A model generated the notes under the pieces. The model was not told where the DNA came from, ran no database searches, and worked only from the letters and a program-made list of their open reading frames with translations. Both the position numbers and the translations under genes were made by a program. A stretch of 64,000 bases of DNA from Gammaproteobacteria bacterium (GTDB lineage: Bacteria > Pseudomonadota > Gammaproteobacteria > JBCCGL01). The stretch spans positions 2,560,001 to 2,624,000 of the forward strand of contig OZ255836.1 in NCBI GenBank assembly GCA_965277715.1, given 5' to 3'. Positions 2,608 to 62,342 of the stretch are shown here, piece after piece (within the stretch, counting starts at the first letter, position 1; each line of letters starts with the position of its first letter).

Positions 2608-2865
2608 ATGAGCAAACGTAATCAAGCCGCCGCGGCGGCACTCGCCGGTCTGGTTGCTGTCGGCATGAGCGCGGTGACCACCAATGTATCTGCCGCTGAT
2701 ATGGAAAAATGCTACGGCGTCGTCAAAGCCGGTAACAACGACTGCCAGACCGCCACCAGCGCATGCGCAGGCACTTCGACCAAAGACGATCAGGCCGACG
2801 CCTGGCTGCTGGTACCCAAAGGTATGTGTGAACGCCTGACAGGTGGTAGCAACACCGCCAGCTAA
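2608..2865 (+). CDS. Bufferin precursor BufA1-like (DUF2282), signal peptide plus 4 Cys
   Basis: Signal peptide followed by EKCYGVVKAGNNDC...CAG...AWLLVPKGMCERL. AGGAG RBS. Adjacent to a DUF692 gene. Confidence 0.88.
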   Translation: MSKRNQAAAAALAGLVAVGMSAVTTNVSAADMEKCYGVVKAGNNDCQTATSACAGTSTKDDQADAWLLVPKGMCERLTGGSNTAS

Positions 2866-3740: not shown

Positions 3741-4500
3741 ATTGCAACGCGGCTTCGCCACCGACCTTCTCAGTGACGCAGCACAGATAAGTGGCCCGCG
3801 TATCTGCACGGGAAAATTCTCCAGCGAGCGGCTGCTACAAGTCTACCGCAACAATTACTTTCTAAGCCTCACCCAGGCACTGAAAGACATACATCCGGTG
3901 GTCAATACATTAGTCGGCGAGGGCTTTTTCAACTACGCCGCCGATAGCTATATTCGCCAGCACCCCTCTACCGATGGCAATCTGCACAGCTTCGGCGATC
4001 AGTTTGGCAACTTTCTCAGCGGCTTCGAGGCGGCTGCAAGCCTGCCTTATCTGGCCGATATGGCCCGCCTGGACTGGGCCTGTCACTGTGCATTTCACGC
4101 CGCAGACACGGCTGCTATCCCCCAAAATAAGCTGGCACAAATACCGACCGCACGCTACGCTGATTTGCGTTTTAGCATCGCGCCGTCAGTGACCCTACTG
4201 CAATCGCGCCACCCAATTTTTACTATCTGGTCGTTTAGCCAACAACAAAACGACAGCGAAGGCACTGGTGTAAATCTGGATTCTGGTGGAGAATACACAC
4301 TGGTTCACCGGCCCTTACTGGAGGTTTCAGTTGAACCACTAAACAGCGCTGAATTTGCGTTTATCAACTCACTCACCGCTGAACAAACGCTGGGTTTTGC
4401 AGTCGAACAGGCCGTTGATGAAGATAGCTCGTTTGATTTGAACATGGCCTTGAACCATTTTTTGAGCAATGGGGTGCTGACCGATTTATGGTTGGATTAA
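3724..4500 (+). CDS. DUF2063 MNIO partner protein (BufC/HvfC-like)
   Basis: LQVYRNN, LVGEGFF, HPS..GNL..FG and YLADMARLDWA motifs; position in the operon. Confidence 0.88.
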   Translation: MPSLPELQRGFATDLLSDAAQISGPRICTGKFSSERLLQVYRNNYFLSLTQALKDIHPVVNTLVGEGFFNYAADSYIRQHPSTDGNLHSFGDQFGNFLSGFEAAASLPYLADMARLDWACHCAFHAADTAAIPQNKLAQIPTARYADLRFSIAPSVTLLQSRHPIFTIWSFSQQQNDSEGTGVNLDSGGEYTLVHRPLLEVSVEPLNSAEFAFINSLTAEQTLGFAVEQAVDEDSSFDLNMALNHFLSNGVLTDLWLD

Positions 4501-18812: not shown

Positions 18813-18954
18813 TAAGCACATGCATGAAACAAACGCCAGGATTAATAAATGTATTAATTTGCCTTATAACTGAGTCGACGTAAGTGTGCTATTAAAAAAT
18901 AACACACTACTGAAATAATATAATAAAAACGGAAGTTGTTTCGTGCACGTTCCT
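18813..18954 (+). mobile_element. MITE family B (TIR AGGAACGTGCAC), copy 1
   Basis: Ends GTGCACGTTCCT; left end is degenerate (AAGCACATGCATGAAACAAAC). Core TTGCCTTATAACTGAGTCG is shared with 30775-30890 and 62221-62342. Confidence 0.75.
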
Positions 18955-20115: not shown

Positions 20116-21036
20116 TCACTCCCGATCTTTCTCACGCTGTCGCGCCAAGGCCTCACGGTGCAATAAATACAAACCACTCACCACAATAATCAACATGCCG
20201 GAAAACGTCGCAATACTGGGAATATCACCCCACACCAAAAACCCTAAGACCACTGCCCATACCATCGCCGAGTATTCATAGGGCGCAATAGCACCCACCG
20301 GTGCCAGGCTAAACGCATGAGTGAGCGCAAAGTGCCCCAATAGTGCCAGCGCGGCGAATACCATCATAAACAACAGAATATCAGCGGGCATCGCCTGCCA
20401 CTGCCAGGGCAGCGTTGCACTGCATAACACCAGCACGACCAGGTTGTAGTAAAACACCAGTGAAAAAGTCGACTCGGTGCGTGAAAGCCAGCGCCCACTC
20501 AGTATAAAAATGGAATAGGCGATGCTGGCCAGCAATACGTAAATGGTTTCGATACGAAATGTATCCACCCCCGGCTGGGTGATGATCAATACACCGATAA
20601 ACCCCACGACGACACTACCCCAGCGGTGTTTGCCAACCTGCTCGCCCAACCACAGGGCTGACAGTGCGGTCATAATAAACGTGGAGCTGAAAAATAACGC
20701 CACGGCGTCGGCCAGCGGCAGGCTTTTCAGTGAATAAAAAAATAAGAGCGGCGCGCAAACGCCAATCACGCCACGGGTGAGATGAGCGGGCAGGCGCTGT
20801 GTGCGGATAGCGCTAAAGCCACCCTGCCAATAAGACATAAGCAAGAACACTGGCATACTGATCCAGCTACGCACCGCGAGCAATTGCAGGGGGGAATAGG
20901 TGCCGGTGACCAACCATTTGACCAGCGCATCCATCACCGACAGGGCAAACACACCGACGGTAATAAGCAATATGCCGGTGAGTACCGGGTTGCGGGGTGA
21001 TTTTTTATTCGCTGCGAGTGGGTCCAGTTCTATCAC
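20116..21036 (-). CDS. DMT/EamA family transporter
   Basis: DALVK, LPLADA, LGEQVG..RW and APYEYS motifs. Confidence 0.9.
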   Translation of the reverse strand: MIELDPLAANKKSPRNPVLTGILLITVGVFALSVMDALVKWLVTGTYSPLQLLAVRSWISMPVFLLMSYWQGGFSAIRTQRLPAHLTRGVIGVCAPLLFFYSLKSLPLADAVALFFSSTFIMTALSALWLGEQVGKHRWGSVVVGFIGVLIITQPGVDTFRIETIYVLLASIAYSIFILSGRWLSRTESTFSLVFYYNLVVLVLCSATLPWQWQAMPADILLFMMVFAALALLGHFALTHAFSLAPVGAIAPYEYSAMVWAVVLGFLVWGDIPSIATFSGMLIIVVSGLYLLHREALARQREKDRE

Positions 21037-29022: not shown

Positions 29023-30105
29023 ATGAAATATAAAAAACGCTTATTCCTGTTATTTTCTATCCTTTTCACACCAATACTGGCGCTGTGCCTGTGGTGGTAC
29101 TGGCCCGGTGAGCAATCGCAGCCTTCTGAGAGCACACAATACGTCGACATGCACCTGCACACAGCGGGGCTGGGCTATGGCGGCAGTGGTGCATTTATCA
29201 GTCAAAGCATGCGGGACAGTTATAAGTTTCCCGTTTACCTGTGGGCGATGGACACCACTGAGGAAGCGCTTCGTGTGCACGGTGACGCTATCGTGATCAA
29301 AAAAATCGCTGCTAAAATTGCCCGGTCGCAGCGAGTGGCCAAAGGTGTCGTGTTGGCGTTGGATGGTGTCATTACTGACGGTGATCTCGACCCTTCACTG
29401 ACGCAGCTTTACGTACCGAACGCATTTATCGCCCGTGAAGTCGGCAAGTACGACAATCTGTTATACGGCGCGAGTATCAACCCCAAGCGACCAGACGCTA
29501 TCGAACGGCTCAGGCGCGCCAAACGCCAGGGTGCGGTGCTGGTGAAGTGGCTGCCCAATATCATGCACTTTGACCCCGGCGATCCGGCGTTCAGTGATTT
29601 TTATCGGGAAATGGTGCGCTTAAAGCTGCCGCTACTCAGCCATGCCGGGCAGGAACGCGCTTTTGCTGGCGCCATTGACCGCTACGGCGATCCCCGCAGG
29701 CTCAAGCTACCACTCGAACTGGGGGTTACCGTGATCGCGGCGCATATCGCCACTACCGGCGAGAGCGAAGGCGAGGGCAACTACCAACGCATCCAGTCGA
29801 TGTTCGCTGAATACCCCAATTTATATACGGATATCTCCAGCCTAACGCAGGCTAATAAACGCGGTTACCTGCGCGACGCGCTGGAAAATGGTGGCTTTGT
29901 TGATCGGCTCATCTACGGCACCGATTGGCCGCTGCAATTTTCGCTCCTGGTGTCACCCGTGTATCAACTTGACCACCTTACGCCTCAACAGGCCAAGGCA
30001 ATTGCCCGGATCGCCAATCAGTGGGATCGCGACGTAGCACTAAAGGAAGCGATGGGAGTGCCCAAGGTAGTGTTCGAGCGCAGCGCGGCAGTGCTCGGTT
30101 TGTGA
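29023..30105 (+). CDS. Amidohydrolase family 2 protein with N-terminal membrane anchor
   Basis: DMHLH, KWLP, LSHAG, AAH, DISS and YGTDWP motifs. Confidence 0.85.
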   Translation: MKYKKRLFLLFSILFTPILALCLWWYWPGEQSQPSESTQYVDMHLHTAGLGYGGSGAFISQSMRDSYKFPVYLWAMDTTEEALRVHGDAIVIKKIAAKIARSQRVAKGVVLALDGVITDGDLDPSLTQLYVPNAFIAREVGKYDNLLYGASINPKRPDAIERLRRAKRQGAVLVKWLPNIMHFDPGDPAFSDFYREMVRLKLPLLSHAGQERAFAGAIDRYGDPRRLKLPLELGVTVIAAHIATTGESEGEGNYQRIQSMFAEYPNLYTDISSLTQANKRGYLRDALENGGFVDRLIYGTDWPLQFSLLVSPVYQLDHLTPQQAKAIARIANQWDRDVALKEAMGVPKVVFERSAAVLGL

Positions 30106-30181
30106 GTCGGGGAATTAAGTGATATGTTGACAACAATATTAAAAATTAGTAGCTTGTGCACGACTATTAGGAAGAAAAATA

Positions 30182-30616
30182 ATGCGTTTCTCAACTGTTT
30201 TTATACTACTTATTGCGCTATGCACTACAGCTTGTACCACAATTCAAGTTACTCCTTTAGAGCCTTCTCTGGCAATATCGAAAGTCTGCATTGAAGTAAA
30301 TAGCAAAGTCATTGTCGGCGATTTTTTACCTGTTATTACCTCGGGGTTTAAAAGGCATGACATATCGACCGAAATCTACGCGAGCGTACCGGATGATGAA
30401 TGCGAAGTAATATTGACTTACACCGCATTGCAGTCTTGGGACCTTACACCCTTCCTGTCGCATGCAGAACTGTGGCTAAACGACAGAAGCGGCAATCAGA
30501 TTGCTTATGCTAAATTTCATTTGGAAGCTAAAGGTGGCTTTGATTTTTCTAAATGGGATAGCACTGAGGAGAAAATGAACCCCGTTATAGACCAGCTACT
30601 CGCAGGCTATAAGTAG
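30182..30616 (+). CDS. Small lipoprotein (Sbal_3080-like)
   Basis: Lipobox TTAC; VCIE.N.KV, LTYTALQSWD and KW.ST..KM.PVID.LL motifs. Confidence 0.7.
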   Translation: MRFSTVFILLIALCTTACTTIQVTPLEPSLAISKVCIEVNSKVIVGDFLPVITSGFKRHDISTEIYASVPDDECEVILTYTALQSWDLTPFLSHAELWLNDRSGNQIAYAKFHLEAKGGFDFSKWDSTEEKMNPVIDQLLAGYK

Positions 30617-30774
30617 CAACCTGATACCTCAATAAATGTATTTTTAACATGCTTTCCATATGAGTTTCATATTCAAATTTTTTATGTGGGAAAAGCCGGA
30701 AAATTTATAAACTTCAGTACGAGTGAATAGCAGTTTGGGCAAAAATCAAACAGTTTGAGTTGTTTGTGGTAGCT

Positions 30775-30890
30775 TAAGAACGTGCACAAAATAACTTCCG
30801 GGGTTTGCAGATATATCGATTTACCTTATAGCTGAGTTGACTGAGTGTGTCATTAACACATAGCGCATTATTTAAATAACATTAAAGAAC
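30775..30890 (+). mobile_element. MITE family B, copy 2 (right end missing)
   Basis: TAAGAACGTGCACAAAATAACTTCCGGG...TTACCTTATAGCTGAGTTG aligns with the other copies. Abuts the intron fragment. Confidence 0.75.
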
Positions 30891-31305
30891 CGTCTGACGC
30901 TGCCCCTTCGCTCCACGTTCATTACAAACGCTTCATCACTACTACGAACAGCTCCGCCCCAGTGCTGTGCTTCGATACGCTCATACTTACCATTTTTGCG
31001 ATTTGTATTTCTCTCTTTGCATCACAACGACTGGTTCCCGCAGTTCCCATAAAAAGCCTGATACACAGCCACGTACACTGTATGCCGGACACCGCCTGCG
31101 CCGCATTCGGCATTCACGCACAGAACTTATCCCAGTTCTACCTCCCGCTCCTGGTTCTGATGTCTTGTCAACTTGGTTTCGACACGTCAACACGTATTCG
31201 GGTTTACTCGTCTCTCATCTATCTTACCTACCAATGTTCTTGCATTGACTTTTCCCCAATGCTCACCACCTACGCTTTTGCATGTTGCCAGGGCGAACGA
31301 CACAC
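30890..31305 (-). mobile_element. Group II intron 5' fragment (domains I-III, IIB/RmInt1-like), no RT ORF or DV/DVI
   Basis: Minus strand shows ordered motifs recalled from RmInt1-like introns: GTGTG start, GGTGGTGAGC, AGACGAG, ACCAGG..CTGGGA, GGCGGTGTCCGGCATA, GGAACTGCGGGAACCAG, GGGGCGGA..CGTAGTAGTGATGAAG..GTAATG..GGAGCGAAGGGG. Confidence 0.82.
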
Positions 31306-34300
31306 TTTCTAAGCTGCCTGTACGGCAGTGAACGTTAAAGACGACGGAATTGGTCATATCATTGCTTTCTAAGCCGCCTGTACGGCAGTGAACTAGAAGA
31401 GCAAGGCAGGCTTGAATATTACAAATTTCTAAGCTGCCTGTGCGGCAGTGAACCAGAGGAAGCTAATAAAATGGCTTGTGATAAATTTCTAAGCTGCCTG
31501 TGCGGCAGTGAACTAGTGTAAACGTCCACACTATCCGATGTAGACTTTCTAAGCTGCCTGTGCGGCAGTGAACACCGGAAATAATAGACGCAGTGGCAAA
31601 CAACATTTCTAAGCTGCCTGTGCGGCAGTGAACACATCGATGTTTGGAATTACTTGACTGTAGATTTTCTAAGCTGCCTGTGCGGCAGTGAACCAGCGAA
31701 CCCAAGAACGCTGGAATCCGTTAACTTTCTAAGCTGCCTGTGCGGCAGTGAACAATTCCCTCTCACCCCCCTCCCACCGATCATTTTTCTAAGCTGCCTG
31801 TGCGGCAGTGAACCAGATTATTTGGACGGCACAGATTGCAGGTTTTTTCTAAGCTGCCTGTGCGGCAGTGAACAAACATCGTGTGTGTCACAACATCCTT
31901 CCCACTTTTCTAAGCTGCCTGTGCGGCAGTGAACAAATTAAGATTTTCAAACTGGGATATTGACTTTTTCTAAGCTGCCTGTGCGGCAGTGAACCCCAGC
32001 AATTTGCGGAGTATCACCGCCGCTGATTTCTAAGCTGCCTGTGCGGCAGTGAACGGAACAAATGTACTCGAAAGAAGTGAGAGAATTTTCTAAGCTGCCT
32101 GTGCGGCAGTGAACGGAACAAATGTACTCGAAAGAAGTGAGAGAATTTTCTAAGCTGCCTGTGCGGCAGTGAACAAAATATTACCCCGCGCAAGCATAAA
32201 ATGAACTTTCTAAGCTGCCTGTGCGGCAGTGAACGCTTGTTTGCTAAACCTTTCTTTTTGCCCTTTTTTCTAAGCTGCCTGTGCGGCAGTGAACTATCAT
32301 TGTCTCTATCTTTATCGAATTCAAAATTTCTAAGCTGCCTGTGCGGCAGTGAACGTTGGTAAACGCACAAAGATTGTTCTTGATGACTTTCTAAGCTGCC
32401 TGTGCGGCAGTGAACTTGCAGATTGTGCTGCAACTGTTATCAGCTTATTTCTAAGCTGCCTGTGCGGCAGTGAACCAGTCAGTTTTGGCATGTATCGCCA
32501 GTGGATATTTCTAAGCTGCCTGTGCGGCAGTGAACAACCGCGCATGTGTGCAGTCATTTACGCGTTTTTTCTAAGCTGCCTGTGCGGCAGTGAACGTGCA
32601 TCATAGTTATCAAAGGGTATGCCAATTTTTCTAAGCTGCCTGTGCGGCAGTGAACCCAAGCAGTGGCTGACGCCGGGCAAAAATAACTTTCTAAGCTGCC
32701 TGTGCGGCAGTGAACGTATTGTCATTCCCATATTTTTGCTTTCATCATTTCTAAGCTGCCTGTGCGGCAGTGAACTGTCAGTGCCTACGGGCCGTTACTC
32801 CCTCGCATTTTCTAAGCTGCCTGTGCGGCAGTGAACTAGACGCAGACGATGCAGAACGTATGCTGGATTTTCTAAGCTGCCTGTACGGCAGTGAACTTCC
32901 CGGAATCGATGCAACGCCTCTGCCCACATTTCTAAGCTGCCTGTACGGCAGTGAACATCAAACTCATTGAATAAATCACAATTGCAGATTTTCTAAGCTG
33001 CCTGTACGGCAGTGAACGGCTATTGGCATCACGCAGTAGTTTCTGCAAATTTCTAAGCTGCCTGTACGGCAGTGAACGACCATGTTCACGGCGTCGATTT
33101 CAACAAGTGTTTCTAAGCTGCCTGTACGGCAGTGAACATTAAATGAAACCGACCGCGCTTTGCGCCGCCTTTCTAAGCTGCCTGTACGGCAGTGAACAAA
33201 AATATCACCGTGCAAAACGTGGTGTCCGTTTTCTAAGCTGCCTGTACGGCAGTGAACCATTGACTAATGTGCAAGCCGGTTTTAGTACCTTTCTAAGCTG
33301 CCTGTACGGCAGTGAACCGCAATTAAATGAGCTTAGGCTCATAATCAATTTTCTAAGCTGCCTGTACGGCAGTGAACTGTTATTGCAAGATAGTTCTAGA
33401 AAGTATCCGTTTCTAAGCTGCCTGTACGGCAGTGAACATCTTCGTTCATCGTATTCTTCTCGTGCTGTCTTTCTAAGCTGCCTGTACGGCAGTGAACCTG
33501 CTGTGGCGCAAAATGTAGTTATCGCACTATTTCTAAGCTGCCTGTACGGCAGTGAACATCATATCAACTGATCATAACGCTGTACTTGCGTTTCTAAGCT
33601 GCCTGTACGGCAGTGAACATAACAGCGCGGTTAGTAGAGTTGAAGGCCAATTTCTAAGCTGCCTGTACGGCAGTGAACCCGACGATTTTATAGACAAAGC
33701 GCACGATATTTTTCTAAGCTGCCTGTACGGCAGTGAACTTCCACATATTCACCGGAAAATCAAGCTCTGATTTCTAAGCTGCCTGTACGGCAGTGAACGC
33801 ACAAGATCTTGCTCATACGAAACCATTAATTTTCTAAGCTGCCTGTACGGCAGTGAACGACGTGAGGAGCCTACGATCTTGCCTGATATCTTTCTAAGCT
33901 GCCTGTACGGCAGTGAACACCATCTCCTTTGCTTGTGCCTTGCGAAATTGTTTCTAAGCTGCCTGTACGGCAGTGAACGCTGAACTTGCATTATTAATGA
34001 TTCAAGACGCTTTCTAAGCTGCCTGTACGGCAGTGAACACCATCTCCTTTGCTTGTGCCTTGCGAAATTGTTTCTAAGCTGCCTGTACGGCAGTGAACGG
34101 TTGGCGCCCGCGTAGTAGCATTTCCGTATTTTTCTAAGCTGCCTGTACGGCAGTGAACGATGTTCAAAATGAGGCGGCTTTATTTATTATTTTCTAAGCT
34201 GCCTGTACGGCAGTGAACCCGTTATGCGCATAAACAATAATTTTTTGCGCTTTCTAAGCTGCCTGTACGGCAGTGAACTATGGATAAAATCTCATATAAA

Positions 34301-37300
34301 ACAGGGAGGGTTTCTAAGCTGCCTGTACGGCAGTGAACGATAGTATAGTCGAGTCCGCCCCGGATGTACATTTCTAAGCTGCCTGTACGGCAGTGAACCA
34401 GTAAATAACCCACTCATAATTGTAGGCGCTTTTCTAAGCTGCCTGTACGGCAGTGAACTCTAAACAACTTAATGACCACTTTATCGCACATTTCTAAGCT
34501 GCCTGTACGGCAGTGAACATATTTTTAAACTCGCACTAAGCGGCGCAACATTTCTAAGCTGCCTGTACGGCAGTGAACGTCTGGATAATATTGGACGCGA
34601 CATTGATCTTTTTCTAAGCTGCCTGTACGGCAGTGAACACAGTCAACTTAGTGCAATTTGCCACGCTGTCTTTCTAAGCTGCCTGTACGGCAGTGAACTA
34701 ACAACTTCATTAATTAATTCAGCATAACTCTTTCTAAGCTGCCTGTACGGCAGTGAACATATGTATCCTTCTGATAGTCTTCATCATGGTTTTCTAAGCT
34801 GCCTGTACGGCAGTGAACACAGTTAGAAGAATGCAAAGAAGCTTCGTGAATTTCTAAGCTGCCTGTACGGCAGTGAACGTTCCGCATTAGAAGGATTTAT
34901 TTTAAGAGCATTTCTAAGCTGCCTGTACGGCAGTGAACTGGAATGACTAATGATATTCTTTCGTTTTTGATTTCTAAGCTGCCTGTACGGCAGTGAACGG
35001 TTGCCGGTGGAAGGGCCGGGCAACAGCGTTTTTCTAAGCTGCCTGTACGGCAGTGAACTTATGCGCGGAGAGCTGAATCTCCTGGCCGCCTTTCTAAGCT
35101 GCCTGTACGGCAGTGAACTCCGGGGCGACCATGTCCTACTTGATGTAAATTTTCTAAGCTGCCTGTACGGCAGTGAACGGTTGTCGGTGAGTTGATTACC
35201 CGTATATTCTTTTCTAAGCTGCCTGTACGGCAGTGAACTGGACGGGGCCTTTTCAGCCACGTTAAATGACTTTCTAAGCTGCCTGTACGGCAGTGAACTG
35301 TTGCTCAGCAGGCCACTTGCCTGAAACAAGTTTCTAAGCTGCCTGTACGGCAGTGAACTGTGATATTACCTCCTTCATTGGCCAAAATATTTTCTAAGCT
35401 GCCTGTACGGCAGTGAACTTATCGGTGTTGCCTGTATCCGTTACTGTATTTTTCTAAGCTGCCTGTACGGCAGTGAACCCTTTGCCATCGATGATTCGGT
35501 GGTCGTAAGATTTCTAAGCTGCCTGTACGGCAGTGAACCGATACCTCGCCACGCCCAAAAAGCCGCCAAATTTCTAAGCTGCCTGTACGGCAGTGAACCT
35601 TCACTTCATATCTAGCTCTGATAACTATCATTTCTAAGCTGCCTGTACGGCAGTGAACTACCGGGCCATGGATATGACTGTCGAGGAAGATTTCTAAGCT
35701 GCCTGTACGGCAGTGAACCAGGAGCGGGTACAAACACGACAATTTCAACTTTTCTAAGCTGCCTGTACGGCAGTGAACGCATTCCTTGCGGCAGGCGTAA
35801 CAATCTATTTTTTCTAAGCTGCCTGTACGGCAGTGAACTATTTCCTGATTAAATAAATGTTGGTATAAATTTTCTAAGCTGCCTGTACGGCAGTGAACAT
35901 TTCTGCCAATTGTCCCAGACGAGACGATAATTTCTAAGCTGCCTGTACGGCAGTGAACGATTTGACGCGTTTTTTTGAATTATATTCTAATTTCTAAGCT
36001 GCCTGTACGGCAGTGAACCGGACAGGATATTAGATGATTGTGTGTTGTCATTTCTAAGCTGCCTGTACGGCAGTGAACTACTTTACTTCATCTTTGCCCT
36101 GGCCGCAGAATTTCTAAGCTGCCTGTACGGCAGTGAACAATTCCCGGTAATTCCAGCGCCGGGAGTGCAGTTTCTAAGCTGCCTGTACGGCAGTGAACTA
36201 CTCGGTTCCGGACATGATAGACATGGTTCCTTTCTAAGCTGCCTGTACGGCAGTGAACAAACTAATGTATCTTATTTTTAAAATCAATAGTTTCTAAGCT
36301 GCCTGTACGGCAGTGAACTTGGAAATATTGTTAAACTGGGAACATGGACATTTCTAAGCTGCCTGTACGGCAGTGAACAAAGCACACAATTCGCCGGTAA
36401 TTTTCAAAACTTTCTAAGCTGCCTGTACGGCAGTGAACTATAATCGGCGCGCAGAAAGATAATGAATATTTTTCTAAGCTGCCTGTACGGCAGTGAACGA
36501 AAAGGAACGCATAGCATCATCGTCTGTATATTTCTAAGCTGCCTGTACGGCAGTGAACTTCTGTCATCAACAAATGAATCAGCTGTTGACTTTCTAAGCT
36601 GCCTGTACGGCAGTGAACTATCAAGATATGGTGGGTATGGCGCTTGTACATTTCTAAGCTGCCTGTACGGCAGTGAACAATCCTTCATACATTTTAAATT
36701 TAATTCAAACTTTCTAAGCTGCCTGTACGGCAGTGAACATTTTTCCCATCGTTTCTAATTTATAGCATTCCTTTCTAAGCTGCCTGTACGGCAGTGAACA
36801 ATCGTTTGAAATGATAGAGAGAGACTTGAGGTTTCTAAGCTGCCTGTACGGCAGTGAACTGTTGGTAGGCGTTGCGATAAGCTGATAAACCTTTCTAAGC
36901 TGCCTGTACGGCAGTGAACATTCAAAAACAGCCGTGCCTGGGGACGCTTGGTTTCTAAGCTGCCTGTACGGCAGTGAACTTACCGGCGCACTAAGAGACT
37001 TGGCATCATCCTTTCTAAGCTGCCTGTACGGCAGTGAACGATTCAAACATTTAATGAAATTGAATTATTTATTTTCTAAGCTGCCTGTACGGCAGTGAAC
37101 GCTGATTTTGGTATCGTATTTGTCCTGCAAAGTTTCTAAGCTGCCTGTACGGCAGTGAACGTTGGAAAGGGGTACACGTTCGAGCTGTGTGACTTTCTAA
37201 GCTGCCTGTACGGCAGTGAACATGATGTGGCCGGAACCATGTCTATCATGTCATTTCTAAGCTGCCTGTACGGCAGTGAACTTTTTAATTATGATTGATG

Positions 37301-40300
37301 CGGTGGGGTCGCTTTTCTAAGCTGCCTGTACGGCAGTGAACGTTTGCGTGATAGTCAAAATCGCGCAGTAATCTTTCTAAGCTGCCTGTACGGCAGTGAA
37401 CCCCCTTCCCCCGTTATTTAACGGCTGTATATACTTTTCTAAGCTGCCTGTACGGCAGTGAACAAGTGGCGGAGACAAGGGAAAGATCAGAAAAATTTCT
37501 AAGCTGCCTGTACGGCAGTGAACGCGGCGTTGAGAGACTGCTGGCAACTTACAACTTTCTAAGCTGCCTGTACGGCAGTGAACAGAGAAGAGAAAAAGAC
37601 GAAAAATTCATGTTCTTTCTAAGCTGCCTGTACGGCAGTGAACGGGCCACGAGCGGATAAGATATTGTGGGCATACTTTCTAAGCTGCCTGTGCGGCAGT
37701 GAACCATCGACGTGGTTGATGCTAGTGATTTATATGTTTCTAAGCTGCCTGTGCGGCAGTGAACATGAAAACTTCTACAGACTCGAGCTTAAAGACTTTC
37801 TAAGCTGCCTGTGCGGCAGTGAACCCGCTGCACCGCGATGATTCGTTTTAATAAACTTTCTAAGCTGCCTGTGCGGCAGTGAACACCCGATGCAAACAAT
37901 TACATAGAAACTAAAGTTTCTAAGCTGCCTGTGCGGCAGTGAACTAATGCCCTCTTTAAATAACGCACTACAAAGCTTTCTAAGCTGCCTGTGCGGCAGT
38001 GAACGATTATTTACTGATGTGTGCTTCGACATAACGTTTCTAAGCTGCCTGTGCGGCAGTGAACTTACAATTATGGGGGTCGCTAATGACTAAAATTTTC
38101 TAAGCTGCCTGTGCGGCAGTGAACCGATGTTCAAAATTTAGTTACAGCGCAAACAATTTCTAAGCTGCCTGTGCGGCAGTGAACAGGTTTAGGTATCTTA
38201 CTTGCTTTAATTAACTTTTCTAAGCTGCCTGTGCGGCAGTGAACGCACACAATAAGCAGGTTACAAGTAAAGTGCGTTTCTAAGCTGCCTGTGCGGCAGT
38301 GAACTTTTGAATGCAAATTTAGACCCGCTGCGCGGTTTTCTAAGCTGCCTGTGCGGCAGTGAACCGAAGCTCAGCGCTTAGCATATCGTGAACCTTTTTC
38401 TAAGCTGCCTGTGCGGCAGTGAACTATAGCGTATTTGGCCTGCAAAAATTCCTGAATTTCTAAGCTGCCTGTGCGGCAGTGAACTACACGGGCGGGTATG
38501 TTGAGCGGAATGTAGACTTTCTAAGCTGCCTGTGCGGCAGTGAACGTGAATTGGAGAAGCGGTTACGAAGATTTGCATTTCTAAGCTGCCTGTGCGGCAG
38601 TGAACGGGATTCAGGTGAAGGTGGAGGTGGAGGTTCATTTCTAAGCTGCCTGTGCGGCAGTGAACTTGTTTACATCGCGACTGTACAGCGCAGCGTATTT
38701 CTAAGCTGCCTGTGCGGCAGTGAACTTTTAAGCGGCAGTTCACTAGTAACGAATAGATTTCTAAGCTGCCTGTGCGGCAGTGAACTGCTAGTTGCAGCAC
38801 GCGCCTCTGTCCACACCTTTCTAAGCTGCCTGTGCGGCAGTGAACTAATACCGTTGTTGCGTACAACGGCGCCACTTTTTCTAAGCTGCCTGTGCGGCAG
38901 TGAACTGGTACGTCGAAGAAAGTTATAAATTACTTGATTTCTAAGCTGCCTGTGCGGCAGTGAACAAATAGGCGATGATCAAGTGGCGCCCATTAGCTTT
39001 CTAAGCTGCCTGTGCGGCAGTGAACAATGTTTCAGAAGCAGGGGCGCTAAACCAATATTTCTAAGCTGCCTGTGCGGCAGTGAACGTGTGGGTGTTTTTC
39101 ATGATAGCACTGGAAGTTTTCTAAGCTGCCTGTGCGGCAGTGAACCATACTATCTGACGCCGGTAACGGGGGGGAACGTTTCTAAGCTGCCTGTGCGGCA
39201 GTGAACTTGGGCAGGGTCTGCTCATAAATTCGCGCAATTTTCTAAGCTGCCTGTGCGGCAGTGAACTTTTCGGCAAAGGAGAAACTAATACACAACTCTT
39301 TCTAAGCTGCCTGTGCGGCAGTGAACCAGGTGTTCAATTCAGTTGGAATGGCTTTACTTTTCTAAGCTGCCTGTGCGGCAGTGAACAGCCGGGGTAAACT
39401 GTTACCGTCGCATCGTTTTTTCTAAGCTGCCTGTGCGGCAGTGAACACGGCGGGGGGCCAGGTACTCGAGCTGAGCGCTTTCTAAGCTGCCTGTGCGGCA
39501 GTGAACGGTTAATAGTTACTTCTAACGTGCCGCCCACGTTTTCTAAGCTGCCTGTGCGGCAGTGAACACGGTGTGCGTCAAATCGTGACTAGCGGCGTTT
39601 TTCTAAGCTGCCTGTGCGGCAGTGAACCGGTACCGCCGGTACCGTACCGGGTTACGGTATTTCTAAGCTGCCTGTGCGGCAGTGAACTAATAAAGGGCAA
39701 TTTAATTTCTGATCGTGTGTTTCTAAGCTGCCTGTGCGGCAGTGAACTGATGTGGGTAACGTCAAAATCCTCGACGATATTTCTAAGCTGCCTGTGCGGC
39801 AGTGAACAAATAAAAAAGATGAAATTACGCATGCTGAAATTTTCTAAGCTGCCTGTGCGGCAGTGAACTTCAAGAACAACTTGCGGCCGCTAAAGGGGGT
39901 TTTCTAAGCTGCCTGTGCGGCAGTGAACGTCATTTACTGTTTCAATTTTATGTTAATGACTTTCTAAGCTGCCTGTGCGGCAGTGAACTGCCCGGGCCAC
40001 ATTCTAATTCGTTTGACTTATTTCTAAGCTGCCTGTGCGGCAGTGAACCGGCGCTGTTGTCGTCAAACACCAGTGAAACATTTCTAAGCTGCCTGTGCGG
40101 CAGTGAACATGCGGGAATAGTGGGCGAGTATTCGGCAACGTTTCTAAGCTGCCTGTGCGGCAGTGAACTTAGAAATAAATTCACCAGCGCGTACATGCAC
40201 TTTCTAAGCTGCCTGTGCGGCAGTGAACAAGTTCTACGGGGCGGGATTTAAGATAAAAGATTTCTAAGCTGCCTGTGCGGCAGTGAACATTCATTAAAAT

Positions 40301-43300
40301 ACTCTCTTTAATTCCGCACGTTTCTAAGCTGCCTGTGCGGCAGTGAACCCCCTCGACGGGTAATCGCCCCATCGACGATATTTCTAAGCTGCCTGTGCGG
40401 CAGTGAACATATTTTGCACCCCATCGGTTTTGGATTTAAATTTCTAAGCTGCCTGTGCGGCAGTGAACGCTCAAGTATCGCTGTAGTTTTTATGCCAGGG
40501 TTTCTAAGCTGCCTGTGCGGCAGTGAACTCCAACTACTGGAATGTACAGACTTAATAACATTTCTAAGCTGCCTGTGCGGCAGTGAACGATTATTACCGT
40601 CGTATGCGCACCAAATGAATTTTCTAAGCTGCCTGTGCGGCAGTGAACTTCACGATGGACGAGAACTAGTACTAGTAATGTTTCTAAGCTGCCTGTGCGG
40701 CAGTGAACAAAGACCTTGCAAAAAATGGGGTGGCAAAACTTTTCTAAGCTGCCTGTGCGGCAGTGAACGCTAGAGACTAAGTTCAATAAATTATTTGAGT
40801 TTTCTAAGCTGCCTGTGCGGCAGTGAACATTGCAGGTCTATTTTAATAACTGTGTGGAAATTTCTAAGCTGCCTGTGCGGCAGTGAACTCTGTCAATCCT
40901 TCCTGGCCACGGCTGTCGCGTTTCTAAGCTGCCTGTGCGGCAGTGAACTAGTGCATTGATAATATCTTGGGGTAATTGCTTTTCTAAGCTGCCTGTGCGG
41001 CAGTGAACCTGGTTTTGTTATCACCCACCGGCACATTGACTTTCTAAGCTGCCTGTGCGGCAGTGAACGATCAGAAACCGTGGCGAAAATATCAATTTTA
41101 TTTCTAAGCTGCCTGTGCGGCAGTGAACTCCTGAATTAATCGATTAAATGCTTGCATGCCTTTCTAAGCTGCCTGTGCGGCAGTGAACCGGGTTCTGAAG
41201 CACTTTTATTGTCATTGTCCTTTCTAAGCTGCCTGTGCGGCAGTGAACGAGGGAATTTAGTATTTTATTGGGATCGGTACTTTCTAAGCTGCCTGTGCGG
41301 CAGTGAACAAAGATTTAGTGAAGGCAGAAAGAGCTATACATTTCTAAGCTGCCTGTGCGGCAGTGAACTGTTGCGCCCCTTGTCAAATGAATATTATTTG
41401 TTTCTAAGCTGCCTGTGCGGCAGTGAACCGACTAATTGAGTCGACAAACAAACAAATAGATTTCTAAGCTGCCTGTGCGGCAGTGAACCAGACGGAGCGT
41501 TATTTTACAAAGACGAAAAATTTCTAAGCTGCCTGTGCGGCAGTGAACCTATGTTAAGTGAATATTCGTACTAGTGAAGATTTCTAAGCTGCCTGTGCGG
41601 CAGTGAACTAAAGCAGTCACAAGCTTATAAATTGGTTCTGTTTCTAAGCTGCCTGTGCGGCAGTGAACAATACCTACCCTGATCATCAATATCTAAAATA
41701 TTTCTAAGCTGCCTGTGCGGCAGTGAACGCCCAAATTTACCCGTTATTATTAGCATTAATTTTCTAAGCTGCCTGTGCGGCAGTGAACCAGAAAGCACCG
41801 GTGTGCACGTAGGCCAAAACTTTCTAAGCTGCCTGTGCGGCAGTGAACACGCGCTGCGCCCCGCACGCGATATTATTTACTTTCTAAGCTGCCTGTGCGG
41901 CAGTGAACGTTGCGTGCATATCCTTGTCGTGTTGACCGACTTTCTAAGCTGCCTGTGCGGCAGTGAACTATGAACTTATTCATCGAGTGACTCTATATCA
42001 TTTCTAAGCTGCCTGTGCGGCAGTGAACCTGTCGATTTTATTTGGGAACCTTCGTGGAACTTTCTAAGCTGCCTGTGCGGCAGTGAACACGCCCCCGGGA
42101 AACCGGGGCAATTAACTAGATTTCTAAGCTGCCTGTGCGGCAGTGAACAGTTATTAACAGCGGGAATCACGCGCTGATTCTTTCTAAGCTGCCTGTGCGG
42201 CAGTGAACAGATATGTGATCGTAGAAGCTAATGATACAAATTTCTAAGCTGCCTGTGCGGCAGTGAACATGAGTAGTGTTGTGCGTGAAAATTATAAAAA
42301 TTTCTAAGCTGCCTGTGCGGCAGTGAACAGTATGATAAATTATTTATAAACTCTGTGATCTTTCTAAGCTGCCTGTGCGGCAGTGAACCATCGAACGAAT
42401 CGAGCGTGCTATCTTTGAATTTTCTAAGCTGCCTGTGCGGCAGTGAACGTCAAAATGTAAAAGTCAGGACTTTAAATGTATTTCTAAGCTGCCTGTGCGG
42501 CAGTGAACTATATAATGAGCACCGGTTCATCCGCCAGCACTTTCTAAGCTGCCTGTGCGGCAGTGAACGGTGGGCGGTCTACAAAAATCACTTAAGAAAT
42601 TTTCTAAGCTGCCTGTGCGGCAGTGAACGGGGTGTGAGTTTACTTGCATTAAATTCACTGTTTCTAAGCTGCCTGTGCGGCAGTGAACGGCAGCGAGTGG
42701 CAGTAATCGGCGATGGCAACTTTCTAAGCTGCCTGTGCGGCAGTGAACATGCAAGAACAATCTAAAATACAATACTTATTTTTCTAAGCTGCCTGTGCGG
42801 CAGTGAACTTGGTAAACAAAGCGTGAACGCGGGAAAAAACTTTCTAAGCTGCCTGTGCGGCAGTGAACAAAGAACTGCCATTGCTCGAATGCCGTAGTAT
42901 TTTCTAAGCTGCCTGTGCGGCAGTGAACCACCCCACAACGCGTAAACGTAACGGGTACTTTTTCTAAGCTGCCTGTGCGGCAGTGAACCCCGATTCGCTC
43001 AATTCATAAAGTCCTACCACTTTCTAAGCTGCCTGTGCGGCAGTGAACGTTAACGCATATAATATAGAACACATACTCACTTTCTAAGCTGCCTGTGCGG
43101 CAGTGAACACTGCTAATTTTCCAATTTCCACGATTGTTGATTTCTAAGCTGCCTGTGCGGCAGTGAACTGTGATATAGCGGAATCGTGGGGCCTATGCGT
43201 TTTCTAAGCTGCCTGTGCGGCAGTGAACTATATCCGCTTATTGGCGGTAGGGGAGTCAGATTTCTAAGCTGCCTGTGCGGCAGTGAACTACTCTGGGGTG

Positions 43301-45809
43301 GAAACATGCATTTGATTATTTTTCTAAGCTGCCTGTGCGGCAGTGAACGCGTGAAAAACTGGTATTGCACAATATCAGAATTTCTAAGCTGCCTGTGCGG
43401 CAGTGAACTGTGTTTCGACGAGCACATTTTTGGCGCAGAGTTTCTAAGCTGCCTGTGCGGCAGTGAACTGACGAAAAGGATGTCACATAGCTTAGTGTTG
43501 TTTCTAAGCTGCCTGTGCGGCAGTGAACTTCGTAGAGCATTGAAACTTGCTGAGGTTGATTTTCTAAGCTGCCTGTGCGGCAGTGAACTGCCAGAACCGT
43601 TTATATGGTGTGCTTATGATTTTCTAAGCTGCCTGTGCGGCAGTGAACATATTTTTGCCAGCATTGAAATTTTACTATAATTTCTAAGCTGCCTGTGCGG
43701 CAGTGAACAAACGGATAGTATCGAAAGTGCCGCTATCATTTTTCTAAGCTGCCTGTGCGGCAGTGAACTATTAGAAGCGGTTAGGCATATAACAAAAAAA
43801 TTTCTAAGCTGCCTGTGCGGCAGTGAACGTTGTTGCGCATAGCTATATAAAGATGTTAAGTTTCTAAGCTGCCTGTGCGGCAGTGAACAATAGGATTGTA
43901 TTTTGATGGATGCGATAAAGTTTCTAAGCTGCCTGTGCGGCAGTGAACGCCCACAAAAGACGCAACAGGCAGCTATTTATTTTCTAAGCTGCCTGTGCGG
44001 CAGTGAACTGAAGATAAATGATCTTTATGAGAGTGACTTTTTTCTAAGCTGCCTGTGCGGCAGTGAACTTATAATACTCGATGTTATTCGTTTTCAAAAA
44101 TTTCTAAGCTGCCTGTGCGGCAGTGAACGGGGGTGGGGAGACGCGGTATTTTATGTTAGTTTTCTAAGCTGCCTGTGCGGCAGTGAACATTTCATCACAC
44201 GCACGCACGTACTGCTGATATTTCTAAGCTGCCTGTGCGGCAGTGAACAAATAATTGATCTTAAAACGATCAAAAAAACATTTCTAAGCTGCCTGTGCGG
44301 CAGTGAACTACTAATATCGCGCCACAGCCAGCCTATATATTTTCTAAGCTGCCTGTGCGGCAGTGAACGAATAAATTATTACCCACTTGCGATAAATCAC
44401 TTTCTAAGCTGCCTGTGCGGCAGTGAACAGCGGAATTAGAGGATCGGTATGGGCCGATGCTTTCTAAGCTGCCTGTGCGGCAGTGAACCGACGAAGGCCC
44501 CACTTACCGAGTCGTTGACTTTTCTAAGCTGCCTGTGCGGCAGTGAACTACGCCCGCTGGATGCCAGACGCCAACCCCCATTTCTAAGCTGCCTGTGCGG
44601 CAGTGAACCGGTAGTGGGGAATCCGATACCAGTTTTTTATTTTCTAAGCTGCCTGTGCGGCAGTGAACTAGATATAAGTCACGTAGAGAGGGCTTTTTAT
44701 TTTCTAAGCTGCCTGTGCGGCAGTGAACTTGAAAAGCATTAGGGCGGATCGTGAAAATCATTTCTAAGCTGCCTGTGCGGCAGTGAACTTGTTGAAAGTG
44801 ATACACCGTCTTATGTATACTTTCTAAGCTGCCTGTGCGGCAGTGAACCGGGTTCTGAAGCACTTTTATTGTCATTGTCTTTTCTAAGCTGCCTGTGCGG
44901 CAGTGAACTTTGTATGATGGCGTTGTTATTGGGAAAGACATTTCTAAGCTGCCTGTGCGGCAGTGAACGTATTTTACCCAGCTCCAGCTCTGCTGAACAT
45001 TTTCTAAGCTGCCTGTGCGGCAGTGAACGGTGGTGGTGAAGTTTATGGTTACAAGGAAGATTTCTAAGCTGCCTGTGCGGCAGTGAACCATTTATGTGCT
45101 CGCTTTTCAACGACATCGAATTTCTAAGCTGCCTGTGCGGCAGTGAACCTGGCGCTGGAAAAGCCACGGGTTTCGAGCCATTTCTAAGCTGCCTGTGCGG
45201 CAGTGAACCAAGGGTTGTACTCGGGGTCAATGTCTTGGTATTTCTAAGCTGCCTGTGCGGCAGTGAACGCCTAATAGCCTCAATTTCACGCTCAACTTCG
45301 TTTCTAAGCTGCCTGTGCGGCAGTGAACAGGTTTTTACAAAGCGTGCCCAGACGGTAATCTTTCTAAGCTGCCTGTGCGGCAGTGAACGAGCTAGGCGCG
45401 CTGGTCAATTTAAGTAAAATTTTCTAAGCTGCCTGTGCGGCAGTGAACTTTGGTGCATAGCAGGGGATCCGGGAGGCCTTTTTCTAAGCTGCCTGTGCGG
45501 CAGTGAACGTAAAAGAAGGCGCTACTACAGTATCTGTAGTTTTCTAAGCTGCCTGTGCGGCAGTGAACGCAGGCGTGGGCGTGGATTTTGTTTTTATTTT
45601 TTTCTAAGCTGCCTGTGCGGCAGTGAACTATTAGAGGCGGTTAGGCATATAACAAAAAAATTTCTAAGCTGCCTGTGCGGCAGTGAACGACGGGGAGTAT
45701 GTGCTAAGCGGGGCGCAGACGTTTCTAAGCTGCCTGTGCGGCAGTGAACCATCGAGGGCGGATGAGATTTGGTCTGGTCTTTTTCTAAGCTGCCTGTGCG
45801 GCAGTGAAC
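31306..45809 (-). CRISPR. Type I-F CRISPR array, 242 repeats / 241 spacers
   Basis: 28-bp repeat GTTCACTGCCG(C/T)ACAGGCAGCTTAGAAA on the minus strand. Spacers are 32 nt, except fourteen of 33 nt and one of 34 nt, counted from period shifts. Confidence 0.99.
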
Positions 45810-45990
45810 GCGAGTATAAAGCAAAAAAAACAAGTCACAACAAATACTTAACTTCAAATAACAAAAAATACCAATGAAATTCGGTGCATCTGTAACTTAT
45901 TGATTTTATTGAATTGTTAAAGAGCGTGAAAAAAGAAGGTCAAAACAAGGGTATTGTTATTGCCTTGCTTAGACTATAGCTGAAAAATAC
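45810..45990 (-). promoter_or_regulatory. CRISPR leader with IHF site
   Basis: AT-rich. Minus-strand AATCAATAAGTTA (45893-45905) fits WATCAANNNNTTR, with a weaker proximal site at 45838-45850. Layout typical of I-F leaders. Confidence 0.85.
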
Positions 45991-49300: not shown

Positions 49301-49379
49301 GGTGTTTGGTGAGTCTGAGCTGGTGTTTTTTGTCGCGCAGTTGGAGAGTGCTTTTATGCAGCTAGTGCATCGCGAGTGA
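46332..49379 (+). CDS. Fusion: APH-like kinase + M23 peptidase domain + class III PLP aminotransferase/phospho-lyase
   Basis: Kinase: [15 protein letters not shown]23: HLGID, YGHL, PHLHFQ. Class III PLP: [25 protein letters not shown]. Confidence 0.88.
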
Positions 49380-62220: not shown

Positions 62221-62342
62221 TAGGAACGTGCACATTTACTCTTTTTCAATACGCTATTGTATTAATAACACGCTTGGCCAACTCAACTATAAGGTAAATG
62301 GGTACATTTACGAATCCCGGAGTTTATTTCGTGCACGTTCCT
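62221..62342 (-). mobile_element. MITE family B, copy 3 (both TIRs intact)
   Basis: TAGGAACGTGCAC...GTGCACGTTCCT, a 12-bp perfect TIR. Interior aligns with the 18813 and 30775 copies. Confidence 0.82.

What the first reader, a model, noticed from the sequence alone, without database searches (positions are those of the whole stretch)
30890..31333. Group II intron ribozyme fragment fused exactly to the last repeat of a type I-F CRISPR array
Seen: on the minus strand the terminal repeat ...GCTTAGAAA is followed with no gap by GTGTGTCGT, and then by about 400 nt carrying ordered group IIB motifs (GGTGGTGAGC, GGAACTGCGGGAACC, GGGGCGGA..GTAGTAGTGATGAAG..GTAATG..GGAGCGAAGGGG). The fragment is co-oriented with pre-crRNA transcription. 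The terminal repeat is intact rather than degenerate. Known: group II introns start with GUGYG. Here TCGT can pair with the GCGG that closes domain I, as expected of a true 5' end, although about 100 nt of early domain I appear to be missing. There is no RT ORF, DV or DVI; a MITE follows. Inference: (a) an intron inserted at a repeat boundary and the old trailer was later deleted; or (b) intron DNA/cDNA was captured like an oversized spacer; or (c) the structured RNA now acts as the 3' end of the pre-crRNA, so Cas6f cleavage would release a crRNA-like RNA (CUUAGAAA handle plus intron 5' end) that could target other intron copies. Caveat: the putative EBS1 loop (GGAGGUA) does not pair with the repeat end, which argues against ordinary retrohoming.
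Basis: partly seen in the sequence, partly recalled or inferred. Interest (0 to 1): 0.82.

Follow-up and report, generated by a model that had tools for sequence, protein, structure and literature searches.

The report
Dead intron fragment beside CRISPR array
Just past the last repeat of a very long CRISPR array lies a broken, non-functional piece of a group II intron, cut off at both ends by deletions; the idea that it is fused exactly to the repeat rests on only nine bases, so it is most likely ordinary genomic debris.

Summary
The sequence facts are real. A 242-repeat I-F-type array (45809->31306, minus strand) ends in an intact repeat followed directly by GTGTGTCGT, and true group II intron DNA follows on the same strand. 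But intron homology covers only 30883-31276, about positions 137-521 of a ~1.9 kb intron: the 3' part of domain I with the EBS2 and EBS1 loops, DII, DIII and the foot of DIV. The first ~136 nt, the RT gene, DV and DVI are absent, so it cannot splice or move. Fuller copies of the same intron in four metagenome runs diverge from the window exactly at 31276 and 30883, so both ends are breakpoints. The 3' end abuts a MITE-like element that has itself lost one terminal repeat. A 29-nt linker (31277-31305) separates repeat and intron. Its first 9 nt match the clade's 5' end (GTGTGCCGY) at 8 of 9 positions (chance about 3e-4). Its other 20 nt look no more intron-like than real spacers. The fragment's EBS1 and EBS2 do not pair with the repeat. 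Best reading: a decayed intron joined to the array by deletion, with the linker a truncated spacer (about 0.5) or a retained intron 5' tip (about 0.3). Oversized-spacer capture and a crRNA-like role are unsupported.

The parts
45810..45990 (-). AT-rich leader of the array (approximate outer limit)
   Evidence: Read directly. It lies upstream of the first repeat in the direction in which the repeats match RF01317.
31306..45809 (-). One continuous CRISPR array: 242 I-F-type 28-nt repeats and 241 spacers (226 of 32 nt, 14 of 33, 1 of 34)
   Evidence: Repeat variants lie in blocks: CA x136, TA x80, CA x24, TG x1, TA x1.
31306..31333 (-). Terminal repeat, intact (TA variant, the same as 81 copies)
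   Evidence: (RF01317, 50.1 bits).
31297..31305 (-). GTGTGTCGT: 8 of 9 match to the clade's intron 5' end GTGTGCCG(C/T)
   Evidence: It is the only one of the 242 repeat-adjacent 9-mers scoring above 6. 39 of 127,982 window 9-mers score 8 or more.
31277..31296 (-). 20 nt of unknown origin (spacer remainder or filler)
   Evidence: No better than real spacers against any part of clade introns. No match in the fetched loci, the window, plasmids, phages or viral contigs.
30883..31276 (-). Group II intron fragment, about positions 137-521 of a ~1.9 kb intron: 3' part of DI, DII, DIII, foot of DIV
   Evidence: blastn to full introns, alignment, and breakpoints at 31276 and 30882-30884 defined by other copies in runs X1, X4, X5, X7.
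31171..31176 (-). Candidate EBS2 (CCAAGT), by position in the alignment
   Evidence: Inferred. L003 has CCATAC against its exon GTATGG; L001 and L002 have CCAGAG against CACTGG. It does not pair with the repeat.
31139..31145 (-). EBS1 loop GGAGGTA
   Evidence: The homologous loops pair with the 5' exon ends in the 15 of 41 unique relatives where the loop was captured. Here the predicted IBS1 is TACCTCC, not the repeat end TTAGAAA.
31033..31048 (-). Invariant core GGGAACTGCGGGAACC, whose CTGCGG pairs with the clade's 5' CCGCAG
   Evidence: invariant in all 4 sequences. Used as the clade probe (72 loci).
30777..30882 (+). MITE-like element, copy A, lacking its right terminal inverted repeat
   Evidence: (depth 10-20x the flank; other copies run on past 30883).
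62222..62342 (-). MITE-like element, copy B, complete, 121 nt with perfect 12-nt terminal inverted repeats
30182..30616 (+). Convergent 144-aa ORF with no Pfam family; first gene beyond the trailer debris

Best explanation
This is a dead remnant of a group II intron lying in the decayed trailer region of a very long I-F-type CRISPR array. It was brought against the array by deletion. The intron belongs to a clade whose encoded proteins have RT and maturase domains but no endonuclease domain, and whose members home into DDE transposase genes and other sites through EBS1/EBS2 pairing. A copy once lay downstream of, or within, the old end of the array.

Deletions then removed the array's original terminal repeats and trailer together with intron positions 1 to about 136 on one side. 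On the other side they removed everything from the RT gene to DVI, together with the right end of a neighbouring MITE. The 29 nt between the last repeat and the intron are most simply the first 29 nt of an old 32-nt spacer.

Shown: the homology, both breakpoints, the missing catalytic parts, the EBS mismatch, and the presence of the repeat-linker-intron contig in two independent runs. Inferred: the order of events and the spacer origin of the linker. The fragment has no function. At most it is read through as a 3' tail of the pre-crRNA, since no terminator-like site precedes it.
For: Homology limits. Other copies in four runs from four studies diverge from the window at 31276 (loose ends in X1, X5, X7; X4 record 16 by its geometry) and at 30882-30884, where they run on to an AGGAGGA ribosome-binding site. 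All blastn alignments to 75 clade sequences start at fragment position 62 or later, that is window 31279 or lower.

The linker. It is 29 nt, against 32-nt spacers in 226 of 241 cases. Its nt 10-29 behave like real spacers in every alignment test: 56%, 73% and 63-95% of spacers score as well. By depth the linker is single copy.

The terminal repeat is intact and of an internal-block variant, as expected if the true end of the array was deleted. The block structure and two duplicated spacers show past rearrangement in the array.

The 3' end is also a deletion. MITE copy A lacks the terminal repeat that copy B has.

EBS1 pairs at 1 of 7 positions with the repeat end, whereas in 15 of 15 relatives with a captured loop it pairs at 5-7 of 7.

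Truncated intron copies beside other mobile DNA are the norm in bacteria (PMC4424553, passages read).
Against: The first 9 nt after the repeat match the clade's 5' end at 8 of 9 positions. Only 39 of 127,982 window 9-mers and 1 of 5,800 within-spacer 9-mers do as well. None of the 241 real spacers starts with GTGT, and none of the other 241 repeat-adjacent 9-mers scores above 6. In a looser gapped test, 0.8% of spacers still reach the observed score.

The repeat end TTAGAAA is 6 of 7 identical to the IBS1 (ATAGAAA) of a subgroup of the same clade. This gives a mechanism for an exact insertion.

No protospacer source was found for the linker, although that is usual for spacers.

The 5' region of the closest full-length copies could not be read.
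Confidence: 0.5

Rival explanations
1. The intron's true 5' tip is retained. An intron of this clade reverse-spliced exactly at the 3' boundary of a repeat, because the repeat end UUAGAAA mimics the IBS1 (AUAGAAA) used by a subgroup that homes into transposase genes. Later internal rearrangement removed positions 10 to about 136, leaving 20 nt of filler. A second deletion removed the RT gene, DV and DVI. The interior, including EBS1, would come from a different lineage or have been overwritten by gene conversion from sister copies.
For: The 8-of-9 match at exactly the first base after the repeat, chance about 3e-4. EBS1 TTTCTAT pairs with ATAGAAA in L048 and L011, and is present in L010 and L046, while the repeat ends in TAGAAA. 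X4's copy of the junction contig has 6 changed letters and 1 gap in 192 nt, against 1 in 421 nt in the flank. That fits exchange among intron copies.
Against: The fragment's own EBS1 (GGAGGTA) pairs at 1 of 7 with the repeat, and its EBS2 does not pair either. Three of four runs show no variant inside the EBS1 loop. Position 6 is T where 42 of 42 clade members have C, and positions 10-11 are TC where 42 of 42 have A and 41 of 42 have G. The rest of the fragment is 97-100% like sister copies. This reading needs two extra breakpoints plus 20 nt of unexplained filler. None of 42 unique clade 5' exons is a CRISPR repeat. No repeat|intron junction was found in viral contigs. The finding was also picked out partly for this coincidence.
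Confidence: 0.28
2. The linker is a genuine spacer that was acquired from the 5' end of some foreign group II intron, with the two exon bases before it serving as the CC PAM. It was later truncated by the same deletion. Its nearness to an intron fragment is secondary.
For: It would explain GTGTG at a spacer start without exact fusion. The fragment's predicted IBS1 TACCTCC ends in CC, which I recall is the I-F PAM (for the loop; the PAM comes from memory, not from a call).
Against: Nt 10-29 match no intron 5' region in 36 unique clade 5' ends, nor anything in plasmids, phages or viral contigs. None of the 241 other spacers matches the intron, the MITE or the 76 fetched loci beyond chance; the best is 16 of 32 nt. 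The prior for one exact protospacer is very low.
Confidence: 0.07
3. The structured intron RNA is a functional 3' end of the pre-crRNA. After Cas6f cleavage of the last repeat, it would yield a crRNA-like guide against intron copies.
For: The fragment is co-oriented with the array and no terminator-like site lies between 31400 and 30100, so read-through is likely. The repeat-linker-intron contig is present in two studies' runs.
Against: Only 9 nt of the would-be 32-nt guide resemble intron sequence. There is no downstream repeat, so the RNA would lack the 3' hairpin that Cas6f holds in the I-F complex (recalled knowledge). No cas genes were found among the 30 large ORFs scanned. The fragment lacks DV, so there is no ribozyme activity. 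The junction was not seen in X5 or X7, although the flank is present there.
Confidence: 0.04
4. The window's path from array through intron fragment and MITE to the flank is partly an assembly join through repeated elements, so the two breakpoints may belong to different intron copies.
For: The fragment (394 nt) and the MITE are multi-copy in the runs. In X1, a 20,006-nt contig carries the flank and the MITE (30450-30884, 3 changed letters) and then runs on for about 8 kb unlike the window. In X5 and X7 the MITE-side contig (30854-30977) is present while the 29-mer is not covered. No single listed contig spans the whole stretch.
Against: A fully resolved 242-repeat array suggests long-read assembly (inference). 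X4 holds both junction contigs at about single-copy depth: 1,310 and 1,058 against a flank depth of 1,052. Strain differences explain the rest equally well.
Confidence: 0.1

Closest known systems
Truncated or inactivated bacterial group II intron copies among other mobile DNA (Zimmerly and Semper 2015, PMC4424553; passages read)
   Same: A fragment lacking the RT gene and catalytic domains, flanked by another mobile element (a MITE), in non-coding DNA. Full copies exist in the same community.
   Different: It abuts the last repeat of a CRISPR array, and the 9 nt at the junction resemble an intron 5' end. I found no description of an intron at a CRISPR repeat among the search listings (49 and 28 papers hold the terms; 15 of each were listed and seen as titles and abstract starts).
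Endonuclease-less IIB-like introns that home into insertion-sequence transposase genes (the clade of L001 Methylobacter, L002 E. coli, L003 Marinobacter; comparison with RmInt1 and the E. coli H-repeat intron is recalled, not tested)
   Same: 74-79% identity over positions ~137-521. The same invariant core and the same EBS1 and EBS2 loop positions. The relatives' proteins have RVT_1 and GIIM only. L001 and L002 sit in DDE_Tnp_1 transposase genes.
   Different: The window copy has no 5' 136 nt, IEP, DV or DVI. Its EBS1 (GGAGGTA) predicts a target ending in TACCTCC, which was not seen among the 42 unique exons.
Class C (IIC) introns that insert after hairpins such as terminators and attC sites (recalled)
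   Same: The junction lies a few bases after a stable hairpin, the CRISPR repeat stem.
   Different: This clade has EBS2 and a 7-nt EBS1 and uses exon pairing. No hairpin-dependent targeting is shown.
RT-Cas1 spacer acquisition from RNA (titles and abstracts seen)
   Same: It links group II-like reverse transcription with CRISPR arrays.
   Different: That process adds normal-sized spacers at the leader end, between two repeats. Here a 394-nt piece sits at the trailer end with no downstream repeat, and no RT or cas1 gene is in the window.

Membership tests
Group II intron (as a functional ribozyme/retroelement) | Sequence homology of DI-DIII to known introns | tested here: met
   blastn E 4e-70 to 5e-63 against full introns with ltrA; 75 clade sequences at 74-79% identity; shared invariant motifs.
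Group II intron (as a functional ribozyme/retroelement) | 5' end GUGYG continuous with domain I | tested here: not met
   GTGTG is present at 31305-31301, but colinearity with intron copies starts only at 31276. About 127-136 nt of 5' DI are absent.
Group II intron (as a functional ribozyme/retroelement) | Catalytic domain V and branch-point domain VI | tested here: not met
   No RF00029 match in the window at gathering score or at E up to 10 in 29500-31340. The relatives have it at 53-58 bits.
Group II intron (as a functional ribozyme/retroelement) | Intron-encoded RT/maturase ORF in DIV | tested here: not met
   Homology ends at 30883, just before the relatives' ribosome-binding site and start codon. 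No such ORF appears.
Group II intron (as a functional ribozyme/retroelement) | EBS1/EBS2 pairing with the 5' flank (IBS1/IBS2) | tested here: not met
   GGAGGTA against repeat end TTAGAAA pairs at 1 of 7. In relatives with a captured loop the pairing is 5-7 of 7 in 15 of 15.
Group II intron (as a functional ribozyme/retroelement) | Rfam covariance-model hit at gathering score | tested here: not met
   RF01999 scores 14.4 bits, E = 6, against a gathering score of 36. The model covers mainly the deleted part.
Type I-F CRISPR array | 28-nt repeat of the I-F family with its hairpin, regular ~32-nt spacers, AT-rich leader | tested here: met
   RF01317 at 50.1 bits per repeat; 242 repeats; 226 of 241 spacers are 32 nt; leader read. 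That RF01317 corresponds to I-F is recalled.
Type I-F CRISPR array | Associated I-F cas genes (cas1, cas2-3, cas8f, cas5f, cas7f, cas6f) | tested here: inconclusive
   None among the 30 large ORFs of the window scanned with Pfam. The rest of the genome is not held.
CRISPR spacer (for the 29-nt linker) | Lies between two repeats, about 32 nt, with an external protospacer | tested here: inconclusive
   It has a repeat on the upstream side only and runs 29 nt to the breakpoint. Composition and alignment behaviour are like the real spacers. No protospacer was found.
MITE | Short, non-coding, multi-copy, with terminal inverted repeats | tested here: met
   Copy B at 62222-62342 has perfect 12-nt TIRs. 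Copy A is 80% identical. Depth is 10-20x the flank, and other copies are present in four runs. Target-site duplication was not examined. Copy A lacks the right TIR.

The most novel reading that the evidence does not exclude
An endonuclease-less group II intron once reverse-spliced exactly at the 3' boundary of a type I-F CRISPR repeat, because the repeat's conserved 3' handle (UUAGAAA) mimics the IBS1 (AUAGAAA) that a subgroup of this clade uses in transposase genes. On this reading, I-F arrays offer hundreds of identical landing sites for such introns, and the 9 nt GTGTGTCGT are the last trace of that event.
Probability: 0.25. Interest if true: 0.55.

Novelty: new member of a known kind. Interest (0 to 1): 0.25.

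Why it matters
As it stands, this is an example of how the trailer ends of large CRISPR arrays collect and erode mobile-element debris. It is useful for annotation: the stretch should not be called a ribozyme, a spacer or part of the array. The one idea worth carrying forward is testable. The 3' handle of I-F repeats is nearly identical to the exon-binding target of a natural intron subgroup, so CRISPR arrays might occasionally act as intron landing pads. If that were shown, it would be a new kind of conflict between retroelements and the immune locus that stores memories of them.

Tried and rejected
Own-genome search: no genome is held for this window.

Synteny in related genomes: the search for related loci with the amidohydrolase gene gave 1 locus at 58% identity on a 2.2 kb contig. 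It was of no use and spent the only genome-contig scan. A search of that genome for RF01999 gave 0 of 1.

Close full-length copy. The exact 31-mer from 31246-31276 gave 0 hits in metagenome contigs and 0 in viral contigs. The degenerate clade probe gave 72 loci, none closer than 79%. The sister copies' 5' end therefore stays unread.

Source of the linker: 0 hits in viral contigs; only E = 9 chance hits in plasmids (12 records, longest 22 nt); none in phages.

Repeat|intron junction motif in viral contigs: 0 hits.

Expression: no RNA holder was listed among the 9 runs, so nothing can be said about transcription.

Coverage gaps. The 29-mer was not covered in X5 or X7, where the bin depth equals the sister-only cover. 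The 30854-30977 contigs likewise have only 29 letters on the MITE side.

MITE by inverted repeats near the fragment: none was found at 30500-31000. The element was recognised only through its second copy. It has no stable fold (z = +2.3).

L011: the two upstream ORFs I tested are YceD-like and a cytidylyltransferase, not transposases. I may have taken the wrong ORFs. The transposase claim therefore rests on L001 and L002 only.

Literature: searches listed nothing on introns at CRISPR repeats. Only titles and abstract starts were seen for those lists, and passages were read in two papers. No supplements were consulted. The library lacks most subscription journals.

An earlier count gave wrong coordinates for EBS1; this was corrected.

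Rejected readings: an oversized spacer, a functional ribozyme, and a compact natural intron variant (the linker is single copy by depth).
Full report
WHAT IS THERE. On the minus strand the window holds one continuous CRISPR array of 242 repeats, from 45809 to 31306. The 28-nt repeats match Rfam CRISPR-DR4 at 50.1 bits each. Of the 241 spacers, 226 are 32 nt, 14 are 33 and 1 is 34. An AT-rich leader lies at the high-coordinate end, so the array is read towards lower coordinates and 31306-31333 is the last repeat. That repeat is intact and identical to a variant found in 81 copies. Repeat variants lie in blocks (136, 80, 24, 1, 1) and two spacers are duplicated, so the array has been rearranged in the past. 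None of the 30 large ORFs scanned is a cas gene, and the neighbours are housekeeping genes. The whole genome is not held.

THE INTRON FRAGMENT IS REAL BUT CUT AT BOTH ENDS. Rfam gives only a sub-threshold hit: RF01999 at 14.4 bits, E = 6, gathering score 36. blastn of 30880-31305 against plasmids found 154 records. The best are complete introns with an ltrA gene, from Methylobacter (75%), E. coli (78.7%, E 4e-70) and Marinobacter. These carry RF01999 at 102-106 bits and the DV/DVI model RF00029 at 53-58 bits. The alignment shows that the window matches them from just before GGTGGTGAGC down to the point just ahead of their ribosome-binding site. In Methylobacter numbering this is about positions 137-521 of a ~1.9 kb intron. 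The first ~136 nt of domain I, the RT/maturase gene, DV and DVI are absent, so the piece cannot fold into an active ribozyme, splice or move.

BREAKPOINTS FROM NATURAL COPIES. Nine public runs hold part of the stretch. I laid contigs of four runs from four studies on it. Other, fuller copies of the same intron (95-100% alike) leave the window exactly at 31276, continuing upstream for 236 nt or more with sequence that resembles the clade's domain I. They leave again at 30882-30884, continuing into an AGGAGGA ribosome-binding site. Both ends of the window's fragment are therefore breakpoints. A 134-nt contig in X1 (31200-31333, no differences) and a 191-nt contig in X4 (31142-31333, 6 differences and 1 gap) carry intron, linker and the whole last repeat. 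The arrangement thus exists in two studies, although each contig has only 28 letters on the repeat side, below the tool's 31-letter rule. In X5 and X7 the linker is not covered: the bin depth there equals what the sister contig alone gives. In X1 a 20 kb contig runs from the flank through the MITE into different sequence. Strains therefore differ here, and an assembly join through these repeats cannot be fully excluded.

THE 3' NEIGHBOUR. The stretch 30777-30882 is a dispersed element, with depth 10-20 times the flank in all four runs. A second copy at 62222-62342 is 121 nt long with perfect 12-nt terminal inverted repeats. The copy beside the intron lacks its right terminal repeat. That junction is therefore a deletion as well, not a clean MITE insertion.

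THE 29-NT LINKER. Between the repeat and the intron homology lie 29 nt (31305-31277). I fetched 72 metagenome loci with a clade probe. Together with the three plasmid introns they gave 42 unique full-length 5' regions.

- All 42 begin GTGTGC. 41 of 42 read CCG(C/T) next. Position 10 is A in 42 of 42 and position 11 is G in 41 of 42.
- The window's GTGTGTCGT matches 8 of 9 positions, then reads TC.
- The match is unlikely by chance. 39 of 127,982 window 9-mers and 1 of 5,800 within-spacer 9-mers score as well. Of the 242 repeat-adjacent 9-mers, only this one scores above 6. No real spacer starts with GTGT.
- In a looser gapped test, 0.8% of spacers reach the observed score.
- The remaining 20 nt are no more like the clade's positions 10-36, the sequence just upstream of the breakpoint, or any part of the introns on either strand than real spacers are. 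The shares of spacers scoring as well are 56%, 73% and 63-95%.
- They match nothing in the window, the fetched loci, plasmids, phages or viral contigs beyond chance.

TARGET PAIRING. In the 15 of 41 unique relatives where my pattern caught the EBS1 loop, the loop pairs with the last 7 exon bases at 5-7 positions:

- TTTCTAT with ATAGAAA
- TGTCCCA with TGGGACA
- CGTCCAG with CTGGACG

The Methylobacter and E. coli copies sit in DDE transposase genes. The relatives' proteins have RT and maturase domains only. The window's loop is GGAGGTA (31139-31145), which predicts a target ending in TACCTCC. It pairs with the repeat end TTAGAAA at 1 of 7 positions, and the candidate EBS2 does not pair either. 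On the other hand, the repeat end is 6 of 7 identical to the ATAGAAA target of a sister subgroup, so a relative could in principle land there.

WEIGHING. The simplest history is one deletion from 29 nt inside an old spacer to position ~137 of an intron that lay beyond the old trailer, plus a second deletion on the MITE side. It explains the intact internal-type last repeat, the spacer-like 20 nt, the near-spacer length and the EBS mismatch. It requires the 9-nt resemblance to be a coincidence of about 3e-4, made less striking because the finding was picked out partly for it.

The rival keeps the 9 nt as a true intron tip. It then needs an insertion not guided by this fragment's own EBS, two more breakpoints, 20 nt of filler, and a mismatch at a position that is invariant in the clade. 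I put these at about 0.5 and 0.28, with small shares for a spacer acquired from an intron end, a functional tail, and an assembly join.

Capture as an oversized spacer is not supported: the site is at the trailer end, there is no downstream repeat, and both ends are breakpoints. A guide role is not supported: only 9 nt are intron-like, there is no 3' hairpin, and no cas genes are in view. No terminator-like site lies between 31400 and 30100, so passive read-through is likely. No RNA run was available.

COMPARISON AND NOVELTY. A review of the field states that most bacterial intron copies are truncated or inactivated and often lie among other mobile DNAs (PMC4424553, passages read). This is such a copy. 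I found no report of an intron at a CRISPR repeat in three full-text searches, for which I saw listings only. No supplements were consulted.

Noticed in passing
window 31306-45809: An exceptionally long single array (242 repeats, 14.5 kb) with no cas gene among the 30 large ORFs of the 64 kb window. Repeat variants lie in blocks (CA x136, TA x80, CA x24, TG x1, TA x1) and two spacers are duplicated, which suggests recombination within or between arrays.
   Followed up: partly
window 62222-62342 and 30777-30882 (short piece also at 18930-18952): A 121-nt MITE-like family with perfect 12-nt terminal inverted repeats (AGGAACGTGCAC). It is highly multi-copy in four metagenome runs. Copy B lies between tatC and a TctA transporter gene.
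   Followed up: partly
L001, L010, L011, L029, L031, L040, L046, L048, L076 (5' exon ends): A subgroup of the intron clade has 5' exons ending TGG NNN AT(A/T) GAA A, with EBS1 TTTCTAT where the loop was captured. The E. coli type (18 identical metagenome copies plus L002) ends CTGGACG. L001 and L002 interrupt DDE_Tnp_1 transposase genes at two different points a few codons apart.
   Followed up: partly
window 31142-31333 compared with 30450-30870, in run X4: The junction contig of X4 differs from the window at 6 letters plus 1 gap in 192 nt, while the single-copy flank differs at 1 in 421 nt. This hints at sequence exchange among intron copies.
   Followed up: no
window 2865-4500: A gene pair of an MbnB/TglH/ChrH-type RiPP modification enzyme (E 7e-104) and a DUF2063 protein, which is a possible peptide natural-product locus.
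   Followed up: no
window 46332-49379: A 1,015-aa ORF next to the CRISPR leader combines a phosphotransferase (APH) domain, a peptidase M23 domain and a class III aminotransferase domain, which is an unusual fusion.
   Followed up: no
window 40049-40080 (spacer) and 20443-20465: One spacer matches an EamA transporter gene in the same window at 21 of 23 nt. Given 241 queries this is probably chance.
   Followed up: no
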